Of a stretch of DNA of 64,000 nucleotides, positions 40,754 through 59,357 are shown one piece after another. Position 1 is the first letter of the stretch. Every line of letters starts with the position of its first letter. Origin of the DNA: Prolixibacteraceae bacterium (GTDB taxonomy: Bacteria > Bacteroidota > Bacteroidia > Bacteroidales > Prolixibacteraceae); assembly GCA_041821245.1 (NCBI GenBank), contig JBGUEP010000001.1, forward strand, positions 78,854-142,853. The letters run 5' to 3'. Both the position numbers and the translations under genes were made by a program. The notes under the pieces are model-generated. The model saw only the letters and a list, made by a program, of their open reading frames with translations. It did not search any database and had not been told where the DNA came from.

Positions 40754-40883
40754 TTTTTCGCCATGCGCGATGCAATGAATATGAGTTTTTAGCAAGCTGT
40801 GTTTTAATTTATTTTACCAAATATTCTGGTTTCTTCACATAAATAATATTGAACTTTAAGGGTGTTATTTATCTCCAACCCTT

Positions 40884-41415: not shown

Positions 41416-42411
41416 ATGGTGTCCAATTTTACAACTATAGCTTTGCAGTTGGATCGTGATGGTTTTCTGGATGAAAATATCCCGAAAGGAATAAACCTGG
41501 TCGAGGAAATAGCTCGTTTGAAGAAAGAGAAAAATGCAGTAATTCTTGGCCATTATTACATCGATGCCGAATTACAGGATATTTCTGATTTTGTGGGCGA
41601 TAGTCTGGCTTTAGCACAGGAAGCAGCTCGTACCGAAGCCGATATTATCGTGTTTGTGGGGGTCCATTTTATGGCCGAAACAGCCAAGATAATTAATCCT
41701 TCGAAGAAAGTTCTGCTTCCCGATTTAAAGGCTGGTTGTTCATTGGCTGAATCTGCTCCTATTGACGAGTTTCGAATTTTTAAGGCGAAATATCCCGATC
41801 ATAAGGTAATTAGTTACATCAATTGTACAGCCGATTTAAAAACAGAAACGGATATTGTTTGTACTTCATCGAATGCCGTAAAAATAGTCAACAGTTTTCC
41901 TCAGAATGAAAAACTTATTTTCGGCCCCGATAAAAATTTAGGCAATTACATTAACTCTTTAACCGGGCGCAACATGGTGTTGTGGAACGGAGCCTGCATG
42001 GTGCATGAGCAGTATTCTGTTGAAAAGATTGTTGACCTGATGAATGCGCATGCCGATGCCGAAACCATTGCTCATCCCGAGTGTGAAACACCGGTATTGT
42101 TACTATCAAAGTACATTGGTTCAACGGCAGCTTTGTTAAGTTATGTTCAGGAAAGTAAAACTCAGAAATTTATTGTGGCTACCGAAAGTGGAATTCTCCA
42201 CCAGATGAAAAAAGTTTGTCCTGAGAAAATCTTTATCCCAGCTCCTTCAAACGACTCCACCTGTGCCTGCAACGACTGTTCGTACATGAAGTTGAATTCC
42301 ATACGCAAGTTATATCTGTGTTTAAAAAACGAATTGCCTGAAGTTGCTTTAAGTGCTGATGTAATTGAAAAAGCCCGAAAGCCTATTGAGCGAATGTTGG
42401 CGCTTTCGTAA
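41416..42411 (+). CDS. nadA: Quinolinate synthase A
   Basis: AVILGHYYIDAELQDISDFVGDSLALAQ...IVFVGVHFMAETAKIINP...CSLAE and a C-terminal cysteine triad region (CACNDCSYMK) typical of NadA. Confidence 0.9.
   Translation: MVSNFTTIALQLDRDGFLDENIPKGINLVEEIARLKKEKNAVILGHYYIDAELQDISDFVGDSLALAQEAARTEADIIVFVGVHFMAETAKIINPSKKVLLPDLKAGCSLAESAPIDEFRIFKAKYPDHKVISYINCTADLKTETDIVCTSSNAVKIVNSFPQNEKLIFGPDKNLGNYINSLTGRNMVLWNGACMVHEQYSVEKIVDLMNAHADAETIAHPECETPVLLLSKYIGSTAALLSYVQESKTQKFIVATESGILHQMKKVCPEKIFIPAPSNDSTCACNDCSYMKLNSIRKLYLCLKNELPEVALSADVIEKARKPIERMLALS
42323..42411 (+). repeat. Direct repeat copy 1: native 3' end of nadA
   Basis: ttaaaaaacgaattgcctgaagttgctttaagtgctgatgtaattgaaaaagcccgaaagcctattgagcgaatgttggcgctttcgtaa recurs at 45217..45306 with 3 mismatches. 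Confidence 0.85.
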
Positions 42412-42460
42412 TCGAGCAAGGTTATAAGTAATTGACAAAACTTAAACTATTATTCCGTTG

Positions 42461-44926
42461 TTAATGAACTATTATTTTTCCTGATACAATTGACTGGTTT
42501 TCAAATTCGACCTTATAAAACAATAGTTTACTCGTTGTTTTTAGTTCCGAACGGTTAACTTGTATGCGGCTGTTTCCTGAAATGTAATAATCAGTGTGCC
42601 CGTAAATTTTTTGCCCTGTTACAGTTGAAATGCTTATGTTGATGTTTTGATCCACTTCAGAATAAAACTGGATGTAAAACTGATCAATTGCAGGATTGGG
42701 GTATACTTTAACCAAATTATCCATCGTAAAGCTTTCAGTTGAAGTACTATTCAATACCGTCACCTTCACTTTATTTGAATCGGTCAATTTCCCATCGTTA
42801 ACGGTTAGTTTAAAGGTGAACGTGCTATCAGTATCAACTTCCGGAGCCATGAACTGTATCTCAGCATTGAATGGATCATTAATGGGTACGCCTTCCGGAC
42901 CTTCCCATTTATACGTTAATTCATCTCCATCTGGATCGTCACCAGTCCCCGTTAATGTTACGAGGGTATTCTCTTTTACTGAAAAATCGCTGCCTGCATG
43001 AGCCGTTGGTGCATTATTATACTCAAAGGCGGGAACAATTTGTTCAAATTGCTCATCCAGCCATTCCATACGTTGCAATACCCAATTTCGCAAGAACTCA
43101 ACATGTTCTTCATAGGTGCCATTACTAAAAACATTGGGCCACACATAGGAGTTTAAAATATTCCACTGATTAAAATTACGATTAGCCGGAACCATCAAAT
43201 CGTTGTAACATGAATCGATAAATGTATTTATTGAATGGTTACTTAATGCTGCCTGACGCAGATCTTCCCAGCGGTATTTTAAGGTGGTTTGCCAGTAAGG
43301 ATCTTCTTTAAATTTATCCCACCAAAATGGAATTTCATTTCCCTGATCGCCTGCGCCAATTCCATCAGCAGCCCAGCCTACAGTATTGCCTCCCTGATAG
43401 AAATTGGCATTTCCAAAGCAAAGGTTGTAATCCCAAAATGGAGTCATAGTTAATTTGCCGCCATTACTGTCTTTATCTTTATGAAAGAAAACACTAACTC
43501 TGTATCCGTCAATATCGCGACTGATTTCAGTGATAAAGAAGTAATCAATGAATGATTCAACATCGATATAGTTTCGATATCCCAATTCCGGATCTATAAA
43601 ATTATTACCATGTAAAGCATCTTCAAAACTGAAAATGTAGTTTTTGATATATTCTCTTTGTTGAACGTTTAATTCATCATACTTCGGATCAATATAAGAG
43701 AATGTCATCTGATAAGTTCCGGTTCTTCCAGGGTAAGGTGAATTAAAACTACCTTCTTGTTGCCGATCGATACTCATAATATAACCACCTGTAAGTTCAT
43801 CACCTTCTATATCTTCTTCTTTTAAGGTCGCAATATCAACTCGGTTTTGATCAATTTTGATTTTCTCAACAAACAGATAAACTCCTCGGTATTCGCTGTT
43901 GATAACCACCTCGACAAATTGCGTTCGTGGATGCCACCCACTCATATTGTTTCCAAAATAATAGGCCAGCGCGTTGCGCATCAGTGATTTGTCAGCATAT
44001 GGACCATGTAGTACCCAGTCGTTCTCTGCAGGCATTCCAAAAAGTGAAACATTGTTATTCGACTCATCTTCATTTCTGGTTTCAACTGTATAGCTTTTCT
44101 TAGGATACGTCTGGGCTGTATTCCCCCTAATTTCTATCCCAATAAACCCGTCATAGGCTAATGAGTCGTTTTTGTCAACATTAAAATAATTTATCTTGTT
44201 TTCATTGTCAACAACTTTCATTTTAGCCATTATCTTGGGCTCGTCAGGAATGGATTTACCTTCAGTATCAATTACAATAATTGGCAAAGAAGAATATTCA
44301 ATTTCCACGGGTTCCTGAAACCAATTGGGTATTTCATTGAATTCAATTGTTGTTCCTTCAATTTGAGCATTTAAGAACACTCTTCCCGATAGATCAGAAG
44401 AATTGCTTGAAATGTTAATTATCTGAACAGCAAGGATGTTGTTGCCCTCAACTAAAAGTGTTGGATCAATTCCAATACGTTCCGGGTTTCCACCACTGTA
44501 CATTATTGCTTCGTGATCGGCAGATACAGAAGGAGTTAATCCTACCTCTCCGGCAGCTAAATTCAATGAGCGTGCAACTTCATCTCCATTTAAGTACGCC
44601 ACAAATGCATCGTCGTAGTCAATATCCAGCAACAAACTCATTATGTTTACCCCACTTCGGATATTAAATGTTTTGCGCATGTATACCGAAGATGTTCCTA
44701 CAGGTACAGTGGTATTGTCGTCTTCGTCGGCATACCCAAAGCCACCAGGTCCCTGGAGCCAATTGTTATCATCAAAGGATATTGAGACCCAATCAGAAGA
44801 AGGTGCTTCGGTTGGTACAAAGTAGGTCCAGGTATTATCTTCAAGAATAATACTTTCCCAATGTGATTGTGCCCATAATTGGTTTGAAAATAGAAATAGA
44901 AGCAGGATGATATTATACTTTTTCAT
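42461..44926 (-). CDS. CotH-family secreted protein with a PKD-like domain and T9SS C-terminal sorting domain; sole gene inside the nadA-3'-repeat-bracketed insert
   Basis: Signal peptide MKKYNIILLLFLFSNQLWAQ. CotH-like core (SYTVETRNEDESNNNVSLFGMPAENDWVLHGPYADKSLMRNALAYYF...EYRGVYLFVEKIKID). PKD-like segment (APTAHAGSDFSVKENTLVTLTGTGDDPDGDELTYKWEGPEG). C-terminal VYPNPAIDQFYIQF...KIIVH. Confidence 0.7.
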   Translation of the reverse strand: MKKYNIILLLFLFSNQLWAQSHWESIILEDNTWTYFVPTEAPSSDWVSISFDDNNWLQGPGGFGYADEDDNTTVPVGTSSVYMRKTFNIRSGVNIMSLLLDIDYDDAFVAYLNGDEVARSLNLAAGEVGLTPSVSADHEAIMYSGGNPERIGIDPTLLVEGNNILAVQIINISSNSSDLSGRVFLNAQIEGTTIEFNEIPNWFQEPVEIEYSSLPIIVIDTEGKSIPDEPKIMAKMKVVDNENKINYFNVDKNDSLAYDGFIGIEIRGNTAQTYPKKSYTVETRNEDESNNNVSLFGMPAENDWVLHGPYADKSLMRNALAYYFGNNMSGWHPRTQFVEVVINSEYRGVYLFVEKIKIDQNRVDIATLKEEDIEGDELTGGYIMSIDRQQEGSFNSPYPGRTGTYQMTFSYIDPKYDELNVQQREYIKNYIFSFEDALHGNNFIDPELGYRNYIDVESFIDYFFITEISRDIDGYRVSVFFHKDKDSNGGKLTMTPFWDYNLCFGNANFYQGGNTVGWAADGIGAGDQGNEIPFWWDKFKEDPYWQTTLKYRWEDLRQAALSNHSINTFIDSCYNDLMVPANRNFNQWNILNSYVWPNVFSNGTYEEHVEFLRNWVLQRMEWLDEQFEQIVPAFEYNNAPTAHAGSDFSVKENTLVTLTGTGDDPDGDELTYKWEGPEGVPINDPFNAEIQFMAPEVDTDSTFTFKLTVNDGKLTDSNKVKVTVLNSTSTESFTMDNLVKVYPNPAIDQFYIQFYSEVDQNINISISTVTGQKIYGHTDYYISGNSRIQVNRSELKTTSKLLFYKVEFENQSIVSGKIIVH

Positions 44927-45216
44927 AATCGGAATATTGTAATTTGGCTGCCGTTTAATTAAAAAGCACTAAATGTAATGTAAAAAAGGCACAACTCGTT
45001 TTTAATGATAAACGAATAGAATTCAAAGAAGATAGAAAGCTGATCGTTTCGCTAGCTGTTTTGAATACATCCTGTTTTTATCGCTGGGACTTAAAAATCA
45101 AATATTTCAGCAAGGTATTTCTGCTCCTCAATTACTAAAATTGTTTTTACAATCATGTGTTTGTGTGTTGGGCTTACTAATTTGACCGAGTCAATTGTTT
45201 TAGCTATATCTCCGCC

Positions 45217-45306
45217 TTAAAAAACGAATTGCCTGAAGTTGCTTTAAGTGATGATGTAATTGAAAAAGCCCGAAAGCCCATTGAACGAATGTTGGCGCTT
45301 TCGTAA
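45217..45306 (+). repeat. Direct repeat copy 2: displaced duplicate of the nadA 3' end, in frame and ending in the same TAA
   Basis: About 90 bp identical to 42323..42411 except for 3 substitutions. Two are synonymous in the nadA frame (ccc/cct Pro, gaa/gag Glu) and one changes Ala to Asp. Confidence 0.85.
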
Positions 45307-45323
45307 GGTATTCAATCGATAAA

Positions 45324-46046
45324 CTAAAAAGTATCCGTTAAATCAGCAATTTTAAAAAGTTTTTGCGTATCTAAAACTATAATTTTTCGCCCTTTTTTTT
45401 CAATTAAATTTTCCTTTTCAAATGTGCTTAAGATGCGAACAAGGGTTTCAACCGCAATCCCAACAATGTTTGCAAAGTCTTCGCGGGTAAGCACAATTTG
45501 AATCTCATTGTCGTCATTTCTGTTTTGTCTGAAGTTTTCGTTGAGGATGAGTAGCGTAAGTGCCACCCTTTCTCTTACACTTTTTGTGGTAAAGGTAGCG
45601 ATGAAGTTAACCATTACTCCAAATTCATGACTTAGCTTTTTAGTCAGCAGGTTGGATAGTTCTTCGTGTTTATCCAACAATCGATCTAGTTTATCTTTTG
45701 AAACAAAACCGATCAATGAATCGGTAATTGCGGCGGCCGAATCCTGATATTTTTCTTCTCCCAGAAATGCTGCGTATCCAATCATCTCACCTTCGTTACA
45801 CAAATAAATTATTTGTTCCTTTCCTCCATTGAGACTTTTAAATTTTTTTACCTTTCCCTTCTTCACAAAATAAATGCCTAGTGGGTATGCCCCTTCTGTG
45901 AAAATATTTTGCCCCCGCTTAAATTGCTTGGCGATCATCTGGTTTTTGAAATCTAGCTGAACATTTTCAGGTAAGCTTTCAAAATCAAATTCCCGTTTCA
46001 GGTTAAATCGTTCCTTTATTTTATTTAAAAGACTATCCATATTCAA
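45324..46046 (-). CDS. Crp/Fnr-family transcriptional regulator (cNMP-binding domain plus C-terminal HTH)
   Basis: cNMP-binding beta-roll (IFTEGAYPLGIYFVKKGKVKKFKSLNGGKEQIIYLCNEGEMIGY) and HTH (LTREDFANIVGIAVETLVRILSTFEKENLIEKKGRKIIV). No N-terminal Cys cluster, so it is not an FNR-type O2 sensor. Confidence 0.8.
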   Translation of the reverse strand: MNMDSLLNKIKERFNLKREFDFESLPENVQLDFKNQMIAKQFKRGQNIFTEGAYPLGIYFVKKGKVKKFKSLNGGKEQIIYLCNEGEMIGYAAFLGEEKYQDSAAAITDSLIGFVSKDKLDRLLDKHEELSNLLTKKLSHEFGVMVNFIATFTTKSVRERVALTLLILNENFRQNRNDDNEIQIVLTREDFANIVGIAVETLVRILSTFEKENLIEKKGRKIIVLDTQKLFKIADLTDTF

Positions 46047-46072
46047 AATTCATGTTCAAAAATAGTCAAATA

Positions 46073-46086
46073 TTGATTTCAATCAA
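46073..46086. promoter_or_regulatory. Perfect FNR/CRP-family-type palindrome TTGAT-N4-ATCAA in the divergent intergenic region
   Basis: ttgatttcaatcaa at 46073..46086. It lies about 27 bp upstream of the Crp/Fnr-family gene start (46046, minus strand) and about 430 bp upstream of the Ehr-like operon. Confidence 0.4.
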
Positions 46087-46516
46087 CTTTATTCCTGATT
46101 TAGATCAAGATTACGATTTCCAAATGAATTACTTTTGTCAATAATTAAGATTATATTTTTTGAATTATTTTATGTCATTTCCGTGTTGTCATTGTTAACT
46201 GTTTTGTTTCTGGTGTTGGGGATTATAGGAATTTTATTTGTTTAGGTAAAGAACAGAGCATTGGTTTCCATTACTGTTGTAACAACAAATGTAATAATTC
46301 CACATAATACATAGATATTTAGGTTGGTAAGTGTTGTTCCGACCATTCGGATACTTCACTATTTGAAATTCTTTTGATAAGAAAATTGCCATCTGAAATT
46401 ACACAAATCTAAGTGCCAGGTCACAATTCGATGATGCCATCAAGGATAAGCAGATTCATTGTTTGGTATGTACTGACACTGAATTAGGTTTAATTATTTA
46501 TGAACTAAAAAAGAGA

Positions 46517-48532
46517 ATGGAAAAACATATTGTTGAAATATTAAATTTGTTGGCCATCTTGTCTTTGGCAATTTTCCCATTTTTGAAGGCACGAAAATTA
46601 GCTTTTACGGCACTTGTTTCAATTATCGTTCAAGTTCTTTTATCGTTCGTTCTGGTTTATCAGGTTTTTACCAATGGAAGCGTCGAATACAGCTATAGCG
46701 GGTCGTTAATCACAGGAAGTATTTCGGTGAAAATTGATTATTTGTCGGCATGGTTCATTCTGGTTATCGTGTTTACCTATTTCACAGGTGCCTGGTATGG
46801 AATACACTACATGAAAAAATACCGTGAACAAACAAGCAACCTAATTTTACATGCCATTGCTTACATATTCGTTTTTATAGGCTTGATTGATATTTGCATT
46901 GTGCAAAACAGCATTGTGTTTCTGGTTGTTTGGGAAATTATGGCTTTTAGTTCATTTATCGTGATCGTTTTTGAACACTATAACAAAGAAACCTTAAAGG
47001 CGGGATTAAATTTTTTGATTCAGTCGCACATCTCCATTCTGTTTTTAACCATCGCATTTATTTGGGCCAAAGTAAAAACAGGTTCTTTTGATTTTTCAGC
47101 CATTTCGGTTTATACCGCACTTCATCCACGCATGGGTTTAGGTTTGTTCGCCTTGTTTTTTATCGGATTTGCAATAAAAGCAGGATTCGTACCTTTTCAT
47201 ACCTGGCTACCCCATGCACACCCTGTTGCTCCTGCCCATATTTCAGGTGTAATGTCGGGAGTGATTATTAAAATCGGAATTTTTGGAATTTTACGAATGC
47301 TCACAATAATCAACGCCAATTATACCATCATTGGAGTTTGCATCCTGATCATTTCAATAGTTACTGGTTTATACGGGGTAATGATGGCCATTGTGCAAAA
47401 TAACCTGAAACGTTTGCTAGCCTATAGTAGTATCGAAAACATTGGGATTATTGGTTTGGGAATTGGGTTGGGTTGTCTCGGAAAAGCATCGAATCATCAA
47501 TGGCTGGTGATTGCCGGATTTGGAGGGGCATTGCTGCACACACTCAACCATTCACTTTTTAAATCGTTACTTTTTTATATTGCCGGAAATGTTTATCAGG
47601 CTACCCACACCTTGAATATTGATTCGTTGGGCGGGTTGCTGAAGAAAATACCACGCACTGCATACCTGTTTCTTATCGGATCGTTGGCTATTTGCGGCTT
47701 TCCGCCTTTCAATGGATTTGTGTCGGAGTTCTATATTTACAATGGATTTTTCAAAGGCCTTCAATCGAACCAGTCGATGTTTAACCTTGCCATGCTTTTT
47801 TCCATTTTTGCCTTGGTGCTTATTGGTGGATTGGCATTAATCACCTTTACCAAAGCTTTTGGTATTGTTTTTTTAGGCAAAAGCCGCGAACCTTTGCATG
47901 TTGATGAAACATTCGATAATCAGGCTGTGGTTTTCCCATTCTATCTCATTGCCTTGGCCATGTTGCTTGTGGGTTTATTTCCGATTCTGTTTTCGTCATC
48001 GCTATTAAAAACAAGTTCTCTTTTTTTCAATACAAGTGATTCATATTCTTTTGTATATCTTGACAAAATGGTAGGTGATATTTCTTCGATTGGATTTTAT
48101 TCAATCGGTTTTATATTGCTGGCGGCTACTTTTTTCGTTTTACGAAAGATGATCACCAGCAAACGACCTTCGCAAACTTATGAAACCTGGGGTTGTGGTT
48201 ATGTTGCCCCAATCCAAAAGGCACAATATTCAGGGAGATCATACACTCGAACTTATAGCCGTCTGTTTGCTCCTATAGTATATGAAGGGAAAGATTTTAA
48301 ACGAATTAAAAAGACAAGTCTTTATCCGAATCATCGTAAATTCTCGACTTACTACGCCGACTTTTGGGAACAATACCTTGTACTTCCGCCTACACGATGG
48401 GTCTCTTTTATTTTGGATAAGTTTCAATTTATTCAAAATGGAAATGTTCAGTCGTATGTGATTTATGGTTTAGCTTTTATTCTTGTGATTGTGATCGTTT
48501 CGATGTTAAGTTCAATTAATCTGGGAGTTTAA
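46517..48532 (+). CDS. Complex-I NuoL / hydrogenase-4 HyfB-like antiporter-type membrane subunit (copy 1)
   Basis: ORF 46463..48532. Start placed at ATG 46517 (MEKHIVEILNLLAIL...) by alignment with the start of paralogue copy 2. WLPHAHPVAPAHISGVMSGVIIKIGIFGILR matches the NuoL/ND5 consensus region ([31 protein letters not shown]). Confidence 0.8.
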   Translation: MEKHIVEILNLLAILSLAIFPFLKARKLAFTALVSIIVQVLLSFVLVYQVFTNGSVEYSYSGSLITGSISVKIDYLSAWFILVIVFTYFTGAWYGIHYMKKYREQTSNLILHAIAYIFVFIGLIDICIVQNSIVFLVVWEIMAFSSFIVIVFEHYNKETLKAGLNFLIQSHISILFLTIAFIWAKVKTGSFDFSAISVYTALHPRMGLGLFALFFIGFAIKAGFVPFHTWLPHAHPVAPAHISGVMSGVIIKIGIFGILRMLTIINANYTIIGVCILIISIVTGLYGVMMAIVQNNLKRLLAYSSIENIGIIGLGIGLGCLGKASNHQWLVIAGFGGALLHTLNHSLFKSLLFYIAGNVYQATHTLNIDSLGGLLKKIPRTAYLFLIGSLAICGFPPFNGFVSEFYIYNGFFKGLQSNQSMFNLAMLFSIFALVLIGGLALITFTKAFGIVFLGKSREPLHVDETFDNQAVVFPFYLIALAMLLVGLFPILFSSSLLKTSSLFFNTSDSYSFVYLDKMVGDISSIGFYSIGFILLAATFFVLRKMITSKRPSQTYETWGCGYVAPIQKAQYSGRSYTRTYSRLFAPIVYEGKDFKRIKKTSLYPNHRKFSTYYADFWEQYLVLPPTRWVSFILDKFQFIQNGNVQSYVIYGLAFILVIVIVSMLSSINLGV

Positions 48533-48535
48533 GTT

Positions 48536-50566
48536 ATGGGAAAAAACCTGATTGAAATAATTAACCTGCTCGCAATCATCACCATTGTGATTTTACCTTT
48601 TTTAAGTACAAAAAAAATGGGCATTGTCACGCTCACGGTAATTTCAGTTCAAGTTGTTTTGGCTTTTGTGGTTGCGTTTTTGGCTTTTTCAGACGGGTTT
48701 ATTTCATTCACATACAAGGGTTCGCTGGCTACCGGCGAAATTCCTATCCGCATTGACTATTTATCGGCATGGTTTATCGGTATTATCAGTTTCACTTTTT
48801 TTACCGGGGCATGGTATGGTTTTCAGTATATGAAAATGTATCGTGATCAACACTCCAATTTAGTTTTACATGCAACTGCATTTATTCTGGCATACACCGC
48901 GCTAATCGACATTTGCATCGTTCAAAATGCTATCGTCTTTTTAGTGATGTGGGAAATAATGACCATTAGTTCGTTTATAACCATCATTTTTGAACACTAT
49001 AAAAAAGAGACCTTAAAGGCTGGGATCAATTTTTTCATTCAATCGCATGTGGCCATTCTTTTTCTCACCATCGCCTTTATTTGGGTGAAAGTAAAAACCG
49101 GATCATTCGACTTTGCAGAAATATCAAAGCTCACAGCCATGCATCCTGCAATGGGAATCGGATTGTTTGTCTTTTTCTTTATTGGATTTGCCATCAAAGC
49201 CGGATTTGTTCCTTTTCATACCTGGCTCCCATTGGCCCACCCGGTAGCACCTGCCCATATCTCAGGAATCATGTCGGGCGTTATCATAAAAATTGGCATT
49301 TTTGGCATTCTGCGTATGATTGTTTTGATCAAAACCGATTACATGACCATTGGTTACTTCATTTTAATTGTTTCGGTAATTACCGGAGTGTACGGGGTTT
49401 CGCTGGCCATTATTCAACACAATCTGAAACGTTTACTAGCCTACCACAGCATCGAAAATATAGGGATCATTGGCATTGGCATTGGTCTGGGATGTCTGGG
49501 CATTGGGATGGAAAATCAGTTATTGCTTATGGCTGGATTTGGCGGGGCGCTGCTACACACCTTGAACCACTCACTTTTTAAATCGCTGTTGTTTTATAGT
49601 GCCGGAAATGTTTATCAGGCAACTCACACCTTAAATATTGAATCGTTGGGAGGACTAATCAAAAAGATTCCACAATCGACCTATCTGTTTTTGATTGGAG
49701 CTTTGGCCATTTGTGGTTTGCCTCCTTTTAATGGTTTTGTTTCCGAATTTCTGATTTACAATGGCTTGTTCAAAGGATTGTTGTCGAATCATTTTATGTT
49801 TATACTGGTGATGCTTTTTTCCATTTTAGCCATGGTTTTAATCGGAGGCCTTGCCCTTATTTGTTTTACCAAGGCTTTTGGAATAGTGTTTTTAGGCAAA
49901 GCCCGAAAAGAATTGCCATCGGATAAAATCATTGAAAAACCCTTACAAGTTGGCTCCTTATACTTAATTGCTTATGCGATAACCGTGATTGGGGTATTGC
50001 CGATTTTATTCACTTCGCCCCTAAGTAAAGCAGCACATCTTTTTCAAAAAAATCCAGACCTGTTTCTTGCTGATGGTCTCACCCAAAACCTAACTATTTT
50101 GACTCTTATCGGTTTGTATTCTTTGGGCTTTGTGGCACTTACAGTACTGGCTTTGTATATCCGACGATTGATTATAAAACGCCGATCGGTTTTAACTGAC
50201 GCTACCTGGGGTTGTGCCTATGTGGGTGATGGAAAAAATATGCAGTACACCGCTTCATCTTTCATCCGTACTTTCAGGAAACTGGCTGAGCCGCTGTTTT
50301 TAATTAAAAAAACAAAAACAGTGGCAACCGGCCTTTACCCAACAACCATAAAACAAAGCACACACCCCTACGACAGATTGGAGTCGGCTTTGATTGACAA
50401 ACCAATTTATTTTTTCAGAAAGGTGTTGAACCGCTTTGTTTTTTTGCAGAATGGTAACATTCAAGCCTACATTCTTTACGGATTTATTTTTATTTCAACG
50501 GCCATAATTTTGCCAATACTAATTTCTAAGTTCATGGTATTTATTCACTTCTTAAATCAATTGTAA
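48536..50566 (+). CDS. Complex-I NuoL / HyfB-like antiporter-type membrane subunit (copy 2, tandem paralogue)
   Basis: Roughly 70 percent identical to copy 1 along its full length (e.g. YLSAWFIGIISFTFFTGAWYGFQYMKMYRDQHSNLVLHA vs YLSAWFILVIVFTYFTGAWYGIHYMKKYREQTSNLILHA). Starts 3 bp after copy 1 ends. Confidence 0.8.
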   Translation: MGKNLIEIINLLAIITIVILPFLSTKKMGIVTLTVISVQVVLAFVVAFLAFSDGFISFTYKGSLATGEIPIRIDYLSAWFIGIISFTFFTGAWYGFQYMKMYRDQHSNLVLHATAFILAYTALIDICIVQNAIVFLVMWEIMTISSFITIIFEHYKKETLKAGINFFIQSHVAILFLTIAFIWVKVKTGSFDFAEISKLTAMHPAMGIGLFVFFFIGFAIKAGFVPFHTWLPLAHPVAPAHISGIMSGVIIKIGIFGILRMIVLIKTDYMTIGYFILIVSVITGVYGVSLAIIQHNLKRLLAYHSIENIGIIGIGIGLGCLGIGMENQLLLMAGFGGALLHTLNHSLFKSLLFYSAGNVYQATHTLNIESLGGLIKKIPQSTYLFLIGALAICGLPPFNGFVSEFLIYNGLFKGLLSNHFMFILVMLFSILAMVLIGGLALICFTKAFGIVFLGKARKELPSDKIIEKPLQVGSLYLIAYAITVIGVLPILFTSPLSKAAHLFQKNPDLFLADGLTQNLTILTLIGLYSLGFVALTVLALYIRRLIIKRRSVLTDATWGCAYVGDGKNMQYTASSFIRTFRKLAEPLFLIKKTKTVATGLYPTTIKQSTHPYDRLESALIDKPIYFFRKVLNRFVFLQNGNIQAYILYGFIFISTAIILPILISKFMVFIHFLNQL

Positions 50567-50567
50567 T

Positions 50568-51473
50568 ATGCTTAGCTTTTTACTCATCATATTGTCGAGC
50601 TTTGTTTTTATGGGCATTGTTGTTCGCACCAAAAGCTTGTCATCGGGACGAAAAGGACCAGGTATATTTCAACCTATGAAAGATATTTTCAGACTTTGGA
50701 AAAAAGGATCGGTAATCAGCACCACAACAAGCCTGATCTTTCAAATTGCCCCAACCATTTATTTTGCTTCTATTGTAATGGCCATTTTAATGATCCCTCA
50801 TGGAAAATTACCGGGAATTATTTCATTCGACGGCGATTTTGTAATGTTTGCCTATGTACTTGCCATTGGGAAATTTATGATGATTGTTTCGGCACTCGAT
50901 ACGGGAAGCAGCTTTGAAGGGATGGGAGCGAGCCGCGAGGCACTTTTCTCCATGTTGGTTGAACCTGCGTTTTTTATCATCATGGGATCGTTTGCGCTTT
51001 TCACCGGCCATACTTCATTTTACGAGATATTCAGTACGCTCAATTACGGACCTTACATTTCGTACCTGATTGGCGGCCTGGCCACTTTTGTGATCATACT
51101 AATTGCCATGGTCGAAAATAGCCGAATGCCCGTTGACGATCCGAAGACCCACCTGGAGCTTACCATGGTTCACGAAGTAATGATTTTGGACAATAGCGGT
51201 TTCGATTTGGGTTTGATCATGTATGCCACTCCCCTAAAATTTGCCATGTATGGCGCACTGATCTCAAACTTTTTTATTGGCGAAATCCCAATTCTGATAT
51301 CGATTCCAATGTTTTTCGGGATTCAATTTGTAATTGCTGTTTTCGTTGGCTTACTTGAATCGTTTATGGCACGGTTCAGGATGAACCACAACCCTCAGTT
51401 TATATTTATTCTAACTTCGGTATCGCTGCTTATCTTTTTCGGAGTGTTACTGGTATTGGGTAAATTCATTTAA
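50568..51473 (+). CDS. NuoH / HycD / HyfC-like membrane subunit
   Basis: IVVRTKSLSSGRKGPGIFQPMKDIFRLWKKGSV matches the NuoH N-terminal ERK...R.GPN..G..G.LQP.AD..K consensus. Eight predicted TM helices. Confidence 0.8.
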   Translation: MLSFLLIILSSFVFMGIVVRTKSLSSGRKGPGIFQPMKDIFRLWKKGSVISTTTSLIFQIAPTIYFASIVMAILMIPHGKLPGIISFDGDFVMFAYVLAIGKFMMIVSALDTGSSFEGMGASREALFSMLVEPAFFIIMGSFALFTGHTSFYEIFSTLNYGPYISYLIGGLATFVIILIAMVENSRMPVDDPKTHLELTMVHEVMILDNSGFDLGLIMYATPLKFAMYGALISNFFIGEIPILISIPMFFGIQFVIAVFVGLLESFMARFRMNHNPQFIFILTSVSLLIFFGVLLVLGKFI

Positions 51474-51484
51474 ATTATACGACT

Positions 51485-52114
51485 ATGACTGATATCTTGC
51501 TGATAACATTTACCATAACGCTACTCTTTATGAGTATTGCCAACCGGATTTATACCTACCTGAATATTCTGATTTTTCAGGGGATAATCCTTTTTGGCGC
51601 CACCTATCTTTCATTGACCGAAATTAACACGGCCAATCTGATATTCATCATGATTGAAACCATTGTGGTAAAAGCCATTGCTGTGCCCATGTTTATGAAA
51701 TACATCATTAAACGAAATAAAATCACCAGAGAAACAGAACCCTTTCTGCCCAACTTCATTTCGTTGATTATTGTAACCGCGATCATCATCATTACAATTA
51801 TTTTATCAAGTGCTGTTAGCGATGTAAATCTCGATAAGACTTATTTTGTTGTCGCTTTATCGAACCTTTTTACGGGTTTGTATTTAATTGTTTCACGTAA
51901 AAAAATCATTGTCCATGTTATCGGATATCTGGTTATTGAAAATGGAGTTTTTGTATTGGCACTTGCCGTTGGTAACGAAATGCCGATGCTGGTAAACATG
52001 GGAATTATGCTCGATATTTTTGCCAGTGTGTTAATTCTTGGGATCTTCTTCAATAAAATTGGCGATTATTTGAATAACCCTGATGTAACTCTTCTAAGCA
52101 ATCTAAAAGATTAA
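51485..52114 (+). CDS. HyfE-like (NuoK-related) small membrane subunit
   Basis: 209 aa, all hydrophobic helices. The C-terminal GYLVIENGVFVLALAVGNEMPMLVNMGIMLDIFASVLILGIF resembles the NuoK/HyfE conserved E-N-G region. Confidence 0.5.
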   Translation: MTDILLITFTITLLFMSIANRIYTYLNILIFQGIILFGATYLSLTEINTANLIFIMIETIVVKAIAVPMFMKYIIKRNKITRETEPFLPNFISLIIVTAIIIITIILSSAVSDVNLDKTYFVVALSNLFTGLYLIVSRKKIIVHVIGYLVIENGVFVLALAVGNEMPMLVNMGIMLDIFASVLILGIFFNKIGDYLNNPDVTLLSNLKD

Positions 52115-52118
52115 TAAT

Positions 52119-53543
52119 ATGATTGGTATTTTTTTAATAGGAACAATTGTCATTTCGGCCTGGCTGTTTTTTAACAAAAACAGAATTGTCAACTACTCTT
52201 TACTTGTGGGCTATACGATTCTACTTTGGGCATTGGGATTTTACGAGTACAATCATATTAACCTCATCGAACTTAGATTCTTTAAACCTGATGCTTTAGG
52301 AATTTTACTTCTTTTTGCCATGTGTATTGTTAGCATTCCCGCCTTTTACCATGGTTACAGGTATATTGTTACGCACGATGAAACGCCTCACACCCGAGGA
52401 TTGTTCTTTGCCGCGATGGTATTGTTGATGTCGGCCTGCAGTATGGCATACCTGTCAAACCACATTGCAGTTACCTGGATTTTTGTTGAAATTACAACAC
52501 TTAGTGCATCGGCACTAATCTACCATCACCGCAACATTAGGGCACTCGAAGGAGTTTGGAAATATGTTTTTATTTGTGCGCTCAGTATCACTTTTATCTA
52601 CATTGGCATTCTGTTTTTGAGTTTATCGATGAAACAAGCGGGTATCGAAGGCATGTCGTTCGATTCAATTCTTCAAAATGTGGAAAAGCTTGATTTGTTT
52701 TGGTTGAAACTCGCCTTCCTTTTCATTTTCACCGGATTTACAGCAAAAATTGGTTTGGTACCCATGTATACTGCGGGTGTCGATGCCAAGGATAAAGCCC
52801 CGGCTCCGGCAGGTGCATTGCTCTCAAGTGTTTTAATGAACATGGGATTTGTGGGTATTTACAGGGTGTATGCAATTCTTACCCACACTGAGTTACAACA
52901 TTGGGCATCAGTTATTATGATTATATCTGGCCTGTTATCAGTATTCGTAGCAACGGTTTACATGACCCATATCAAAAACATCAAACGCATGTTCGCCTAT
53001 TCGAGCATCGAACACATGGGATTAGTGATGTTGGGCCTAGCCGTTGGTGGAATTGGTGTTTATGCCGCCATTTTACATCTCATTCTTCATACTTTTGTAA
53101 AATCCAGTTTATTTTTTCAATACAATCAAATTTTTCTGGTTTATAAAAGCAAAAGCATCTACGATTCAGGTCATTACTTTAAATACAACAAGATTGGTGC
53201 TATTGTAATCTTGTTGGCCTTTATTTCGGCCACGGCTATGCCTCCATCAGGTTTGTTCGTCTCCGAATTTTTAATTTTTCAGGCCCTGTTCGAAGCTCAT
53301 TACATTGTTATTCTAATTGCACTTTTAATCCTATTGACCATGATTATCTGGGGATTTGGAACAAATATTTTCAAATTACTTTTTACGCCTCCATTGAAAC
53401 TAGATGAAACCACTATTCCTAAGATAAATCCTTGGAATTCGTTCTCTCAATTTGCATTGTTGGCATTGTCGGTTTATTTAGCCTATAGCCCGCCACCAGT
53501 ATTTGTGCAACTGATTCAGGATGCTGTAACCCTTGTTCAATAA
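52119..53543 (+). CDS. NuoN/NuoM / HyfF-like antiporter-type membrane subunit
   Basis: 474 aa with about 14 TM helices and a proton-pumping-subunit core (FTAKIGLVPMYTAGVDAKDKAPAPAGALLSSVLMNMGFVGIYR). Confidence 0.7.
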   Translation: MIGIFLIGTIVISAWLFFNKNRIVNYSLLVGYTILLWALGFYEYNHINLIELRFFKPDALGILLLFAMCIVSIPAFYHGYRYIVTHDETPHTRGLFFAAMVLLMSACSMAYLSNHIAVTWIFVEITTLSASALIYHHRNIRALEGVWKYVFICALSITFIYIGILFLSLSMKQAGIEGMSFDSILQNVEKLDLFWLKLAFLFIFTGFTAKIGLVPMYTAGVDAKDKAPAPAGALLSSVLMNMGFVGIYRVYAILTHTELQHWASVIMIISGLLSVFVATVYMTHIKNIKRMFAYSSIEHMGLVMLGLAVGGIGVYAAILHLILHTFVKSSLFFQYNQIFLVYKSKSIYDSGHYFKYNKIGAIVILLAFISATAMPPSGLFVSEFLIFQALFEAHYIVILIALLILLTMIIWGFGTNIFKLLFTPPLKLDETTIPKINPWNSFSQFALLALSVYLAYSPPPVFVQLIQDAVTLVQ

Positions 53544-53549
53544 AACGAT

Positions 53550-55052
53550 ATGAATACCATAAAACTACATAACAATCAGACGGTTAATTTGAAGGACATT
53601 CCCGAACTGAACTATCAAGAGTTCATGAATACGAACCTTGAATTACTGGCTAATAATCCCGAAAGGCATTGTGTTAACTATTTTGGTGTTGACGATGAAA
53701 ACTGCCTGACACTCTACTGTTGTATTGCCGACGATGCAACGCACGAAATTTATGTTTCATGTTCTGTTTTGAAAGGAAAAACTGAATACCCATCGTTTTC
53801 GGCTCAGAATCATAATTTTGAAAAGTTTGAAAGGGAAATCCACGAAAACTTTGGAATTGCATATACCGATCATCCCTGGTTAAAACCTTTCAGGTACAGC
53901 CACAATCGATTCGATTCAGGAAAAACCATTCGCAACTATCCGTTTTATGGGGTTGAAAGTGATGAATTGCATGAAGTAGGTGTTGGTCCGATTCATGCAG
54001 GGATTATCGAACCCGGGCATTTCCGTTTTATTTGTAACGGAGAACAAATCATGCACCTCGAAATTCAACTGGGCTATCAGCACCGGGGCATTGAACAACT
54101 GTTTCTGCAAAAAACAAAAATATTAGAGCGCGCTACACTTGCCGAAAATATAACAGGTGATACCACGGTTGGACATTCTACCGCGTTCGCAAATCTTTGG
54201 GAAAGCTTGAGTGATTACACAGCCGATCCTTCCTTGCAATTTTCGCGTACCCTTGCTCTCGAATTGGAACGTATTGCCATACATACCGGAGATATGGCAG
54301 GTGTATGTGCCGACATTGCTTACCAATTGGGCAACTCGGTTTATGGGCGCTTGCGAACCCCAATCGTTAACTTTTTCCAGGAATGGGGAGGCAATCGTTT
54401 GGCCAAAGGCTTAATCAGGCCCGGCAAAATAAACTACCCCTTTTCACCCGAATTAGGAAATCGGCTCATTGAAATTTTTAAAGCTTACGAGCCCGACTTT
54501 AACGAAATGACCCATAAGTTCTTTTCCCTTCCCAGCGCTTTGTCGCGTATGGAAAGGACAGGAATTGTAACTTACGACGAGGCACTTGAAATCGGTGCTG
54601 TGGGCATGGCTGCCCGTGCAAGTGGATTAAACAGAGATATTAGATCATCCCATCCGCACAATTTATACAATCAGACAATTACTCATGAACCCGAAATTAA
54701 ACATCATGGTGATGTGTATTCCAGGGTGCGGATTAGAAGGGAAGAAATTGTACAGTCTGTTTCCTATTGTAAAAAGCTGATAGAATCTATCCCTGAATTT
54801 GATTCGCCCAAAAATATTCCATTTAAACCTGGCAGTGACAAATTCACTATTGCATTGGTTGAAGGCTGGCGAGGCGAAATTTGTCATTGTGCCATTACCG
54901 ATGCTGAAGGAAAGTTGAAAATCTATAAAATTAAAGATCCATCGCATCACAATTGGATGGCTTTAGCTCAATCGGTAAGGAACAACGAAATTTCTGATTT
55001 CCCAATCTGTAACAAGAGTTTTAACCTATCATACAGTGGTCACGATTTATAA
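53550..55052 (+). CDS. NuoC-NuoD fusion / HycE-like large subunit homologue lacking all four Ni-Fe-binding cysteines
   Basis: N-terminal NuoC-like part (FEREIHENFGIAYTDHPWLKP), then the NuoD/[NiFe]-large-subunit core (GVGPIHAGIIEPGHFRF...GYQHRGIEQ). The N-terminal RxCGxCxxxH site reads ITGDTTVGHSTAF (both Cys replaced by Thr). The C-terminal DPCxxCxxH site reads DPSHHNWMA (Cys replaced by Ser and Asn). Confidence 0.8.
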   Translation: MNTIKLHNNQTVNLKDIPELNYQEFMNTNLELLANNPERHCVNYFGVDDENCLTLYCCIADDATHEIYVSCSVLKGKTEYPSFSAQNHNFEKFEREIHENFGIAYTDHPWLKPFRYSHNRFDSGKTIRNYPFYGVESDELHEVGVGPIHAGIIEPGHFRFICNGEQIMHLEIQLGYQHRGIEQLFLQKTKILERATLAENITGDTTVGHSTAFANLWESLSDYTADPSLQFSRTLALELERIAIHTGDMAGVCADIAYQLGNSVYGRLRTPIVNFFQEWGGNRLAKGLIRPGKINYPFSPELGNRLIEIFKAYEPDFNEMTHKFFSLPSALSRMERTGIVTYDEALEIGAVGMAARASGLNRDIRSSHPHNLYNQTITHEPEIKHHGDVYSRVRIRREEIVQSVSYCKKLIESIPEFDSPKNIPFKPGSDKFTIALVEGWRGEICHCAITDAEGKLKIYKIKDPSHHNWMALAQSVRNNEISDFPICNKSFNLSYSGHDL

Positions 55053-55067
55053 AAAAGGAAGATTGAA

Positions 55068-55829
55068 ATGTTAGATAATCTAAAAATATTATGGCATCAG
55101 GGGAAACAGTTTATTCCAGATGTTACCACCGCAAAAGTACCAGGCATCTTTAGAGGACGACCAATCATAACTAAAAATCAAGTGAATGAAGAGCTGCTGG
55201 TTGACTTATGTCCAACAAAAGCCATTTCAAGAAACCCATTGTGCATCGATTTGGGCAAGTGCACTTTTTGCGGCGAATGTGCGGTGCAATTTCCAGATAA
55301 GATTTCATTTACCAAGGATTATAAATTATCAACAAATATAAGGGAACGCTTAATAATTCATGAAGTTGAAGATGCGCCAATTATGGTTGATCCAACGCTT
55401 GTTCGAAAAGAAATTCATCGTTTGTTTGGACGTTCGCTTAAGTTGAGGCAGGTTTCAGCAGGTGGCGATAACAGTACTGAATGGGAATTGAACGCATCGA
55501 ATAATGTTCAGTTCGACATAAGCCGCTTTGGGATCGATTTTGTAGCCTCGCCTCGCCATGCCGATGGAGTTGTAATTACAGGCCCCATTACCTCAAACAT
55601 GGCCGAGTCCCTCGAACGATGCTACCATGCCATTCCCGAGCCTAAAATCATCATCCTTGCCGGTACTGATGCCATCAGCGGAGGTATTTTTGCCGACAGC
55701 CCGGCAATCGACCGGAGCTTTTTAACGAAATACCCAATCGACTTATATATTGCAGGTAACCCTGTTCATCCTTTAACATTTATCAATGGTGTATTAAATT
55801 TAACACGAACCAAATCTACCAGAAGATGA
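55068..55829 (+). CDS. Fusion of a ferredoxin-like (NuoI/HycF-related) domain with a NuoB / hydrogenase-small-subunit-like domain that lacks all four N2-cluster cysteines
   Basis: N-terminal DLCPTKAI...CIDLGKCTFCGECAVQFP has one possible 4Fe-4S site. The C-terminal part aligns to NuoB (SPRHADGVVITGPIT...EPKIIILAGTDAISGGIF...LYIAGNPVHP vs SPRQADLMVVAGT...EPKWVISMGACANSGG...VYIPGCPPRPE). The cluster cysteines are replaced: CC to N/S, C to T, C to N. Confidence 0.7.
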   Translation: MLDNLKILWHQGKQFIPDVTTAKVPGIFRGRPIITKNQVNEELLVDLCPTKAISRNPLCIDLGKCTFCGECAVQFPDKISFTKDYKLSTNIRERLIIHEVEDAPIMVDPTLVRKEIHRLFGRSLKLRQVSAGGDNSTEWELNASNNVQFDISRFGIDFVASPRHADGVVITGPITSNMAESLERCYHAIPEPKIIILAGTDAISGGIFADSPAIDRSFLTKYPIDLYIAGNPVHPLTFINGVLNLTRTKSTRR

Positions 55830-56245
55830 AGAATTTACGATTTGCTTTTGCCATAGGAGATGATAATCTAATTGCTGAAACGAAATTTAGTGATGCTTCT
55901 ATGATCCGAATTTACGAGTATCTTTTTACTGAAAAATGTTTGAATTTTATTTCAGAAGAGATAAATCCTGTTTTTGAAATAAAAGATCATGATGAAAAAG
56001 TCAGCATTTTGATTGATTTCCTCAGCAGCAATAATATTGATTTGCTTGTCGCAAAAAAATATGGAATAATGATAGAAGTTGAAAATAAATATTTTGTTCC
56101 AATAGTTGTTTCAAATTCATCACCCCAAAGAGTGGTCGAATTAATCACAAAACAAATCAACTGGCTTTATGATGAACTTGAATTAGAAAAAAAAGAACAC
56201 ATGATTATTCGAATTGACAAAGGTGTTTTTAAGTATAAATTATAA
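55826..56245 (+). CDS. Small hypothetical protein, possibly a NifX/NifB-like (Nitro_FeMo-Co family) cofactor-binding fold; translationally coupled to the preceding gene
   Basis: The ATGA start/stop overlap with 55068..55829 indicates coupling. MKNLRFAFAIGDDNLIAETKFSDASMIRIYEY resembles the MKIAIP..DG..S.HFG.A..F.IYE start of NifX-like proteins. The similarity is weak. Confidence 0.3.
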   Translation: MKNLRFAFAIGDDNLIAETKFSDASMIRIYEYLFTEKCLNFISEEINPVFEIKDHDEKVSILIDFLSSNNIDLLVAKKYGIMIEVENKYFVPIVVSNSSPQRVVELITKQINWLYDELELEKKEHMIIRIDKGVFKYKL

Positions 56246-56248
56246 GAA

Positions 56249-57238: not shown

Positions 57239-57267
57239 TTAAGAAAAGATCTTTAAAAACAAACGAT

Positions 57268-59286: not shown

Positions 59287-59357
59287 ATTTAGTCAATGGT
59301 CAAAAGTCATTGGTCATTTGTTTTTCTCAGAAATGATCAATTCACAAAAATAGCAAT

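What the first reader, a model, noticed from the sequence alone, without database searches (positions are those of the whole stretch)
42323..45306. About 90 bp direct repeat of the nadA 3' end bracketing a 2.8 kb single-gene insert (CotH-family T9SS cargo)
The last ~89 nt of nadA (42323..42411) recur at 45217..45306 with 3 mismatches. Two of them are synonymous in the nadA frame, and the second copy keeps the frame and the TAA. This is the footprint of site-specific integration into the 3' end of a protein-coding gene. The incoming DNA supplies a replacement 3' end and the displaced original is left at the far junction. The bracketed segment (42412..45216) carries only the minus-strand CotH/PKD/T9SS gene and no integrase. 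It is therefore either a decayed island remnant or a cargo cassette moved in trans.
Basis: seen in the sequence. Interest (0 to 1): 0.7.

Follow-up and report, generated by a model that had tools for sequence, protein, structure and literature searches.

The report
Orphan nadA tail: a recombination scar
A real 90-base second copy of the end of the nadA gene marks the seam where two alternative gene blocks, each found directly after nadA in related bacteria, were joined in tandem, most likely by ordinary host recombination and not by a mobile element.

Summary
The repeat is real. Window 42322-42411 (the last 29 codons of nadA plus TAA) recurs at 45217-45306 with 87/90 identity, where none is expected by chance. 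The same junctions occur in independent contigs from run SRR29254070.

The "site-specific integration of a cassette" reading is only partly supported.
- **For it:** relative L091 has nadA running straight into crp, with no CotH. Copy 2 and its right flank are collinear with that intact junction, so copy 2 is a displaced original nadA end.
- **Against it:**
  - None of the 52 ORFs of at least 120 aa in the 64 kb window is an integrase or transposase.
  - None of 88 other nadA loci carries a second nadA end.
  - CotH has host-like composition.
  - CotH sits just downstream of nadA in two other relatives (L088, L089).

The interval between nadA and a conserved methyltransferase/DUF2400 pair holds at least six different gene sets across eight relatives.

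Best reading: a scar of homology-anchored insertion of a chromosomal fragment into a hypervariable interval that lacks mobile-element genes. Which block arrived last is unresolved. This is an ordinary kind of feature and of low interest.

The parts
41416..42411 (+). nadA (quinolinate synthase), intact, 331 aa
   Evidence: Pfam NadA, E = 2.9e-116, full length. Same length as its closest homologues, which are 89% identical.
42322..42411 (+). Repeat copy 1: the working 3' end of nadA (29 codons plus TAA)
42412..42460 (.). 49-nt spacer between the convergent nadA and CotH stop codons
   Evidence: No significant similarity to the flank of copy 2 (P = 0.15) or to the nadA-CotH spacer of L088 (P = 0.98).
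42461..44926 (-). CotH-family protein with a PKD-like domain and a T9SS C-terminal sorting domain, 821 aa, intact
   Evidence: Pfam. Host-like GC, GC3 and codon usage. Orthologues of 65-73% identity lie just downstream of nadA in L088 and L089, and elsewhere in L090 and L094.
44927..45203 (.). 277-nt non-coding stretch upstream of CotH (presumed promoter region). Its right end is the non-homologous junction.
   Evidence: No nadA-like or methyltransferase-like remnant. No ORF over 25 aa. No Rfam match at the gathering threshold; the one sub-threshold match touching it (44876-44969, 25.7 bits against a gathering score of 80, E = 0.73) is chance level. About 60 nt next to the start codon are weakly conserved with L089.
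45204..45216 (+). Left extension of copy 2: nadA-like (CTA TAT CTC CGC C) with a 1-nt indel and 5 differences from copy 1
   Evidence: Alignments. The blastn matches of L082 and L091 to copy 2 both start at 45204. The clustering of differences has P = 7e-4.
45217..45306 (+). Repeat copy 2: orphan nadA 3' end, with no upstream coding sequence, presumed non-functional
   Evidence: Collinear with the intact nadA end of L091.
45324..46040 (-). Crp/Fnr-family regulator, 238 aa
   Evidence: Pfam cNMP_binding and HTH_Crp_2. 89% identical to the L091 orthologue.
46463..55829 (+). Group-4 hydrogenase-like / Mrp-like membrane complex genes (three antiporter-like subunits, NADHdh, a 209-aa ORF, a fused 30/49 kDa subunit, a 20 kDa subunit)
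   Evidence: Pfam. 82-95% aa identity and the same gene order in L091.
55826..58521 (+). 139-aa ORF, FabH and FabF: extra genes absent from L091 at this position
58573..60137 (-). Conserved right flank of the variable interval: a methyltransferase gene and a DUF2400 gene
   Evidence: Pfam. Present to the right of the interval in L082, L086, L088, L089, L091 and L093.

Best explanation
Copy 2 (45204-45306) is a non-functional orphan of the nadA 3' end, left by one recombination event. That event stacked two alternative downstream-of-nadA gene blocks in tandem. One block is CotH, which lies just downstream of nadA in relatives L088 (adjacent) and L089 (one gene between). The other is crp plus the hydrogenase-like cluster, which follows nadA in relative L091. 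Both lie in a hypervariable interval bounded by nadA on the left and a conserved methyltransferase/DUF2400 pair on the right. The likely mechanism uses host recombination functions only: DNA from a closely related chromosome, one exchange in a conserved flank, and one non-homologous join at 45203/45204, about 103 nt before the nadA stop. Two routes give the same product. In route (a), a fragment [nadA end - CotH - 277 nt] enters a nadA|crp chromosome, either anchored in nadA or as a circle crossing over once in the nadA 3' homology. In route (b), a linear fragment whose ragged left end lay inside nadA [nadA' - crp - hydrogenase - ... - methyltransferase] is anchored on the methyltransferase side and joined illegitimately upstream of a resident CotH. 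Shown: the repeat; both junction types in relatives; the collinearity of copy 2 with an intact nadA-crp junction; the absence of recombinase genes; the variability of the interval. Inferred: the recombination mechanism, the donor, and which block came last.
For: (1) The repeat is real and is present in independent contigs. (2) L091 positions 647-1727 align in one piece (81%) to window 45204-46281, that is, from 102 nt before the L091 nadA stop through the spacer into crp. The copy-2 flank against the L091 flank scores 60, against 16.5 +/- 3.3 for shuffles. (3) L088 has nadA|CotH|MTase|DUF2400 and L089 has nadA|HATPase|CotH|MTase, with CotH convergent to nadA as in the window. (4) The nadA-MTase interval holds nothing in L082 and L093, crp plus hydrogenase in L091, SulP plus FG-GAP plus DUF4915 in L086, CotH in L088, HATPase plus CotH in L089, and CotH plus nadA' plus crp plus hydrogenase plus FabHF in the window. 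(5) No integrase, recombinase or transposase family matches any of the 52 window ORFs of at least 120 aa, and none is listed in the intervals of the relatives (and the gene tables above). (6) None of 88 other nadA loci has a second nadA end. (7) CotH composition is host-like: GC 0.380 against 0.401 +/- 0.020, and its codon-usage distance is among the smallest in the window. (8) The repeat ends exactly at the stop codon, as expected if the two haplotypes share nadA and differ from the first base after it. (9) Published precedent exists for hotspots without mobile-element genes that turn over by recombination in flanking core genes (PMC5635113). Precedent also exists for orphan 3' ends left by homology-facilitated illegitimate recombination in Rhs and T6SS effector loci (PMC5361080).
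Against: No genome of the same species was found, so no donor, no recent empty site and no population data exist. The relatives are only about 77-81% identical in DNA. Which block arrived last is unresolved. L091 is closest on the right-flank genes but not on nadA, and the nadA-CotH spacer shows no detectable homology to that of L088. The copies differ at 3 of 90 positions but at 5 of the 13 adjacent positions (P = 7e-4). A single clean event does not predict that pattern; it needs later gene conversion, mismatch correction or a messy junction. Classical homology-facilitated illegitimate recombination usually deletes recipient DNA and does not duplicate it (route b avoids this problem, route a needs a circle). 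Only 64 kb of the genome was visible, so a recombinase acting in trans cannot be excluded. Natural competence of this lineage is unknown.
Confidence: 0.6

Rival explanations
1. Site-specific integration. A cassette or decayed island carrying an attP that mimics the nadA 3' end was inserted by a tyrosine or serine recombinase. That recombinase has since been lost or is encoded elsewhere and acts in trans. Copy 1 is the element-supplied end (attL) and copy 2 the displaced original (attR).
For: The architecture matches e14 in icd, where a 163-bp pseudo-icd' is left behind (PMC6379469). An empty site exists in L091. Copy 1 keeps the frame, and two of the three differences are synonymous. The interval after nadA varies between genomes.
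Against: There is no recombinase in the insert or anywhere in the 64 kb window. None of 88 other nadA loci has a second nadA end. The cargo is a single host-like gene that also lies just downstream of nadA in L088 and L089. There are no phage or mobile-element gene families in the insert and no viral-contig matches. Both copies are far closer to each other (97%) than to any relative's nadA (71-84%), so any attP would have to be freshly derived from this same lineage.
Confidence: 0.13
2. An old local arrangement kept alike by gene conversion. The tandem nadA-CotH-nadA'-crp structure predates the split from L091. The central 90 nt are held alike by repeated conversion from the selected copy 1 while the edge erodes. 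The empty site in L091 is then a secondary deletion by recombination between the two repeats.
For: Differences cluster at the left edge of copy 2 (5 of 13 against 3 of 90, P = 7e-4), the pattern expected when conversion tracts rarely reach repeat ends. The edge of copy 2 (CTC CGC C) resembles the CTC TGC C of L091 and L082, whereas copy 1 has CTG TGT T, as if it had preserved an older allele. Direct repeats 2.9 kb apart readily delete the DNA between them.
Against: No relative shows the tandem structure. It needs sustained conversion of a functionless 90-nt fragment over a divergence of about 20%. Nothing shows that L091 ever carried CotH.
Confidence: 0.17
3. Assembly artefact or mixed molecules. 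The sample holds a nadA|crp chromosome plus a separate 2.9 kb circle or a second strain, and the assembler threaded them into a tandem.
For: The k=31 Logan contigs break inside the 34-nt exact repeat and are equally compatible with a chromosome plus a 2895-nt circle.
Against: The junction between the CotH upstream region and nadA' lies inside a contig built directly from reads, so that joint exists in real DNA. The longest exact repeat stretch is 34 nt, far below read length, so any assembler using a larger k resolves the path. The window's own contig, 374 kb according to the database record, runs through it. A 2.9 kb circle with no replication gene would not persist.
Confidence: 0.05

Closest known systems
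Displaced (orphan) 3' ends in Rhs, CDI and T6SS effector-immunity loci, attributed to homology-facilitated illegitimate recombination (PMC5361080 and the work it cites by de Vries and Wackernagel 2002, Prudhomme et al. 2002, Jackson et al. 2009)
   Same: A conserved upstream gene keeps an intact reading frame with a new end and new downstream gene or genes. The old 3' end survives as an orphan immediately upstream of its original neighbour. No recombinase is involved. The donor is a related chromosome.
   Different: Here the gene is a housekeeping enzyme (nadA), not a polymorphic toxin. The new and old ends are 97% identical, not divergent. Only one displacement is seen, not an array. The mechanism is inferred, not demonstrated.
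Hotspots of gene turnover without mobile-element genes, between conserved core genes (Oliveira et al. 2017, PMC5635113)
   Same: The same two flanking conserved genes (nadA, and methyltransferase/DUF2400) hold at least six different gene contents across relatives, with no integrase, transposase or tRNA gene in the window.
   Different: The published definition is statistical and applies within a species pan-genome. Here the comparison spans metagenome-assembled relatives of genus or family level, and recombination rates in the flanks were not measured.
Prophage e14 integrated in the 3' end of icd in E. coli (Hill et al. 1989, as summarised in PMC6379469)
   Same: A direct repeat of the 3' end of a protein-coding gene. 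The gene stays intact with a near-identical substitute end. A pseudo 3' end is left at the far junction (163 bp for icd').
   Different: e14 carries its own integrase and phage genes and recurs at icd in many strains. Here there is no recombinase, no element genes, no recurrence, and the cargo gene lies just downstream of nadA in other genomes.

Membership tests
Integrase-mediated integration into a gene's 3' end (e14/icd type) | Direct repeat of the target gene's 3' end at both junctions, with the gene left intact | tested here: met
   90 nt, 87/90 identical, nadA intact at 331 aa
Integrase-mediated integration into a gene's 3' end (e14/icd type) | Tyrosine or serine recombinase gene inside the bracketed DNA, usually next to one att site | tested here: not met
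   The insert has only the CotH gene and no ORF over 25 aa in the 277-nt spacer. No recombinase family matches any of the 52 window ORFs.
Integrase-mediated integration into a gene's 3' end (e14/icd type) | The bracketed DNA is a recognisable mobile element (phage, ICE or IME genes, atypical composition) | tested here: not met
   PHROGs gives only a CotH-domain family of unknown function. Composition is host-like. No viral-contig relatives.
Integrase-mediated integration into a gene's 3' end (e14/icd type) | The same site is used recurrently in other genomes | tested here: not met
   None of 88 other nadA loci (with up to 10 kb of flank each side) has a second copy of its own nadA 3' end.
Integrase-mediated integration into a gene's 3' end (e14/icd type) | An empty site exists in related genomes | tested here: met
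   L091 has nadA directly followed by crp, collinear with copy 2. It is only a genus-level relative (about 78-81% nt identity).
Integrase-mediated integration into a gene's 3' end (e14/icd type) | Excision to a circle and restoration of attB | not testable with these tools
   This needs the reads of SRR29254070 or PCR.
Homology-anchored insertion with 3'-end displacement (HFIR-type) | The orphan 3' fragment is still attached to its original downstream neighbour | tested here: met
   Copy 2, the spacer and crp align in one piece to the intact nadA-crp junction of L091.
Homology-anchored insertion with 3'-end displacement (HFIR-type) | The alternative arrangement exists as a normal chromosomal neighbourhood in related genomes (a plausible donor) | tested here: met
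   L088 has nadA|CotH; L089 has nadA|HATPase|CotH. The spacer itself shows no detectable homology.
Homology-anchored insertion with 3'-end displacement (HFIR-type) | A non-homologous junction with short microhomology at the unanchored end | tested here: inconclusive
   TATATCT is shared 4-5 nt to the left of the repeat, but it is followed by a 5-nt patch that differs and a 1-nt indel.
Homology-anchored insertion with 3'-end displacement (HFIR-type) | A recombination breakpoint is detectable in the anchoring gene | tested here: inconclusive
   A sliding-window comparison of nadA with 7 relatives shows the last ~95-140 nt of the gene (the windows starting at 42271 and 42316) most like L088, 80-83% against 68-76% for the other relatives, but the sample is too small to decide.
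Hotspot without mobile-element genes between core genes | Same conserved flanking genes, different content between them, in several genomes | tested here: met
   Six or more contents between nadA and MTase/DUF2400.
Hotspot without mobile-element genes between core genes | No integrase, transposase or tRNA gene in the interval | tested here: met
   Window. Relatives: no such Pfam family in their gene tables.
Hotspot without mobile-element genes between core genes | Raised homologous recombination in the flanking core genes, and statistical excess of transferred genes within a species | not testable with these tools
   No conspecific genomes were found.

The most novel reading that the evidence does not exclude
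The nadA 3' end is the attachment site of an undescribed, trans-acting recombination system in Prolixibacteraceae that moves integrase-less, single-gene or few-gene cargo blocks (T9SS cargo, transporters, a hydrogenase operon) in and out of the nadA-methyltransferase interval. It would resemble an integron platform whose recombinase is encoded elsewhere, and the 90-nt repeat would be its attL/attR pair.
Probability: 0.06. Interest if true: 0.7.

Novelty: new member of a known kind. Interest (0 to 1): 0.22.

Why it matters
The main value is corrective. A gene-end duplication that looks like an att-site footprint turns out, on comparison with relatives, to be a seam between two chromosomal haplotypes in a variable interval that has no mobile-element genes. 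It gives a clean example, involving a housekeeping gene, of the orphan-3'-end scars better known from toxin loci. It also flags the nadA-methyltransferase interval as a place where Prolixibacteraceae swap accessory genes (a T9SS-secreted CotH protein, a Crp-regulated hydrogenase-like complex, transporters). It does not reveal a new mechanism.

Tried and rejected
1. Genome-collection scan with nadA: 80 loci, best 75% identity, none syntenic downstream. Useful only as a negative set for repeat recurrence.
2. Exact look-up of the window's nadA: not on record, because the short-read contigs break at the repeat.
3. Metagenome scan with the first hydrogenase subunit, and a degenerate DNA pattern for the lineage-specific nadA C-terminus NELPEVALS[A/D]DVIEKA: no hits, so no conspecific contigs.
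4. Viral-contig scans with the 34-mer and with CotH: nothing.
5. Search for nadA-derived sequence further upstream of copy 2, and for a methyltransferase 3' remnant in 44927-45216: none.
6. Test of whether the repeat continues beyond the stop codon with indels, which an eye alignment suggested: not significant, P = 0.15. Rejected.
7. Promoter and terminator scan and Rfam on 40.7-46.6 kb: nothing above chance.
8. The apparent 25-nt repeat D3 (40730 and 41281), considered as a second displaced gene end: it is instead the end of a frameshifted tandem paralogue.
9. Integron-like cassette: no attC-like inverted repeat pair brackets the insert and no IntI-like gene was found. Rejected.
10. Sliding-window search for a recombination breakpoint in nadA: suggestive at the 3' end but underpowered.


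Full report
**1. The observation**

The window carries a 90-nt direct repeat, 42322-42411 and 45217-45306, with 87/90 identical.
- The first copy is the last 29 codons and the TAA of an intact 331-aa nadA (Pfam NadA, E = 2.9e-116).
- The second copy has no coding sequence upstream of it.
- The three differences are GCT/GAT (Ala/Asp), CCT/CCC and GAG/GAA.
- The shared 34-mer occurs twice in the window and never in 100 shuffles.
- Between the copies lies one gene on the minus strand (42461-44926) with CotH, PKD-like and T9SS sorting domains.

A contig from run SRR29254070 is identical to window 42326-45246. It includes the joint between the CotH upstream region and copy 2. A second contig from the same run carries crp and ends inside copy 2. 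So the joints exist in reads. Those k=31 contigs break in the 34-nt exact stretch, so the tandem order itself rests on the window's assembly.

Two refinements:
- nadA-like sequence runs 13 nt further left in copy 2 (45204-45216), with a 1-nt indel.
- The similarity stops exactly at the stop codon.

**2. What surrounds it**

None of the 52 ORFs of at least 120 aa in the window matches an integrase, recombinase or transposase family. There is no tRNA gene and no Rfam family at the gathering threshold.

To the right of copy 2 the order is:
- a Crp-family regulator (45324-46040);
- an eight-gene group-4 hydrogenase-like / Mrp-like cluster (46463-55829);
- a 139-aa ORF, FabH and FabF (to 58521);
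- on the minus strand, a methyltransferase, DUF2400, a metallo-beta-lactamase-fold protein, an ABC ATPase and a Na/Ca exchanger.

GC content is flat across the region. The GC, GC3 and codon usage of CotH are within about one SD of the other 33 genes.

**3. Relatives**

The organism is an uncultured Prolixibacteraceae bacterium. The database record names an NCBI MAG with a 374 kb contig. The closest nadA proteins are 89% identical. Gene order around nadA in the relatives I could fetch is as follows.

| Locus | Arrangement |
|---|---|
| L082, L093 | nadA \| MTase \| DUF2400 ... |
| L086 | nadA \| SulP, FG-GAP T9SS protein, DUF4915 \| MTase |
| L088 | nadA \| CotH \| MTase \| DUF2400 |
| L089 | nadA \| HATPase, CotH \| MTase |
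| L091 | nadA \| crp, hydrogenase-like cluster \| MTase \| DUF2400 \| beta-lactamase-fold \| ABC |
| L083, L084 | nadA followed by an unrelated, truncated minus-strand gene |

L082 also shares the window's genes upstream of nadA and aligns to window 28989-63964, except for 42412-58572 and a smaller gap.

The interval between nadA and the methyltransferase/DUF2400 pair is therefore hypervariable, with at least six contents. The gene tables list no mobile-element families in any of them.

**4. The two junctions**

L091 positions 647-1727 align in a single 81% piece to window 45204-46281. That runs from 102 nt before the L091 nadA stop, through the stop and the spacer (both continue TAAGGT...), and into crp. 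Copy 2 is therefore what remains of an intact nadA that once ran straight into crp.

Equally, CotH lies just downstream of nadA, in the same convergent orientation, in L088 (adjacent) and L089 (one gene between). These orthologues are 72% and 65% identical in protein. CotH orthologues of 72-73% also sit in unrelated contexts in L090 and L094.

The window thus contains both downstream-of-nadA arrangements stacked in tandem, with a nadA end in front of each.

**5. Why not a site-specific element**

The defining features of the e14/icd type, other than the repeat and the empty site, fail.
- There is no recombinase in the insert or in the 64 kb window.
- There are no element genes.
- Composition is host-like.
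- There is no recurrence. I took the last 120 nt of nadA in each of 88 other loci and searched that locus; none has a second copy (by protein).
- Both copies are much closer to each other (97%) than to any relative's nadA end (71-84%). The incoming end therefore came from this same lineage and not from an element with its own history.
- A nadA end travelling with CotH needs no attP, because nadA and CotH are plain chromosomal neighbours in related genomes.

**6. Likely mechanism (inferred)**

The mechanism is host recombination acting on DNA from a closely related chromosome, with one exchange in conserved sequence and one non-homologous join at 45203/45204.
- **Route (a):** a fragment [nadA end - CotH - 277 nt] enters a nadA|crp chromosome. 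It is either anchored in nadA or enters as a circle by one crossover in the about 100 nt of nadA homology (Campbell-type, RecA-dependent).
- **Route (b):** a linear fragment whose left end happened to lie 103 nt inside nadA [nadA' - crp - hydrogenase - ... - methyltransferase] is anchored on the methyltransferase side and joined illegitimately upstream of a resident CotH. This is classical homology-facilitated illegitimate recombination.

Both routes give exactly the observed product.

The evidence on which block came last is mixed.
- L091 is the closest relative on the right-flank genes (MTase 64% against 49-57% in the other four relatives that carry it, DUF2400 79% against 58-71%, ABC 95% against 90%).
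- On nadA, L091 is no closer than L083 or L085.
- The nadA-crp junction is demonstrably orthologous to that of L091. The nadA-CotH spacer shows no detectable homology to that of L088.

I rate "CotH came last" at roughly 60:40.

Published parallels:
- Hotspots that lack mobile-element genes and turn over by recombination in flanking core genes (PMC5635113).
- Orphan 3' ends in Rhs and T6SS effector loci, ascribed to the same kind of anchored illegitimate recombination (PMC5361080).

**7. An unexplained detail**

Copy 2 differs from copy 1 at 3 of 90 positions but at 5 of the 13 positions immediately to the left, plus one extra base. Such clustering has P = 7e-4.

Read with the indel removed, that edge spells CTA TAT CTC CGC CTT. 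This is an nadA-like Leu-Tyr-Leu-(Cys to Arg)-Leu whose differences from copy 1 (TTA TAT CTG TGT TTA) are mostly at synonymous sites. It also resembles the CTC TGC C of L091 and L082.

Two readings are possible.
- The 90 nt were homogenised, by mismatch correction during the event or by later gene conversion, while the edge escaped.
- The structure is older than it looks and is kept alike by conversion. In that case the empty site in L091 could be a secondary deletion between the repeats.

I keep the second reading as a rival at 0.17.

**8. Verdict**

- The inference that copy 2 is the displaced original end is supported.
- The inference of a site-specific mobile cassette is not supported.
- The feature is a recombination scar in a variable interval without mobile-element genes. 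This is a known kind of thing, here in a new locus and lineage.
- Copy 2 has no predicted function.
- Interest is low. A trans-acting, nadA-targeting recombination system is not excluded by 64 kb of sequence, but nothing positive supports it (about 6%).

Noticed in passing
window 40881-41304: A frameshifted tandem paralogue (31-37% aa identity, split over two frames) of the 194-aa signal-peptide protein gene at 40169-40753. Both end in GGV(N/K)MKF*. It is probably a decaying tandem duplicate and explains repeat D3.
   Followed up: partly
window 11823-11910 and L086 3927-4013: An about 88-nt non-coding stretch is 85% identical between the window (downstream of the amidase gene) and L086, where it lies inside the variable nadA-methyltransferase interval. 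The surrounding DNA is only about 70% identical or unalignable. No Rfam match. It could be a small conserved RNA or a short mobile repeat.
   Followed up: partly
window 46281-46463 versus L091 1617-3626: L091 has a third antiporter-like subunit gene (669 aa) between crp and the first subunit gene that the window lacks. This points to a paralogue deletion in the window or a duplication in L091.
   Followed up: no
window 55826-58521: A 139-aa ORF with no Pfam match, FabH and FabF sit between the hydrogenase-like cluster and the methyltransferase gene. They are absent at this position in L091, so the right side of the interval is variable too.
   Followed up: no
window 46463-55829: The Crp-linked group-4 hydrogenase-like / Mrp-like cluster is patchily distributed. 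Its nearest relative is 82% identical (L091), and the next are 64-69%, some from other families (Labilibaculum, Salinivirgaceae). It is absent from the nadA-syntenic relatives L082, L088 and L089 within the stretches fetched.
   Followed up: partly
window 31160-33799: A Band_7/SPFH gene (470 aa) and a 196-aa ORF are missing from the otherwise syntenic relative L082. This is a second indel between the two genomes.
   Followed up: no
L088 6730-6793 versus window 45307-45370: The flank downstream of nadA in L088 contains a hairpin, AAAAAGCCTGTAAAT...ATTTACAGGCTTTTT. It weakly resembles the copy-2 flank and crp 3' end of the window (shuffle P = 0.0045 before correcting for six comparisons). It is possibly a trace of a former nadA-crp junction, or low-complexity chance.
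   Followed up: partly
window 999-4964, 13650-16574, 33509-36040, 38863-39981, 42461-44926: There are five genes with a T9SS C-terminal sorting domain in 64 kb, including a second, distantly related CotH-family gene (13650-16574, with CHB_HEX_C_1 and LTD domains).
   Followed up: no
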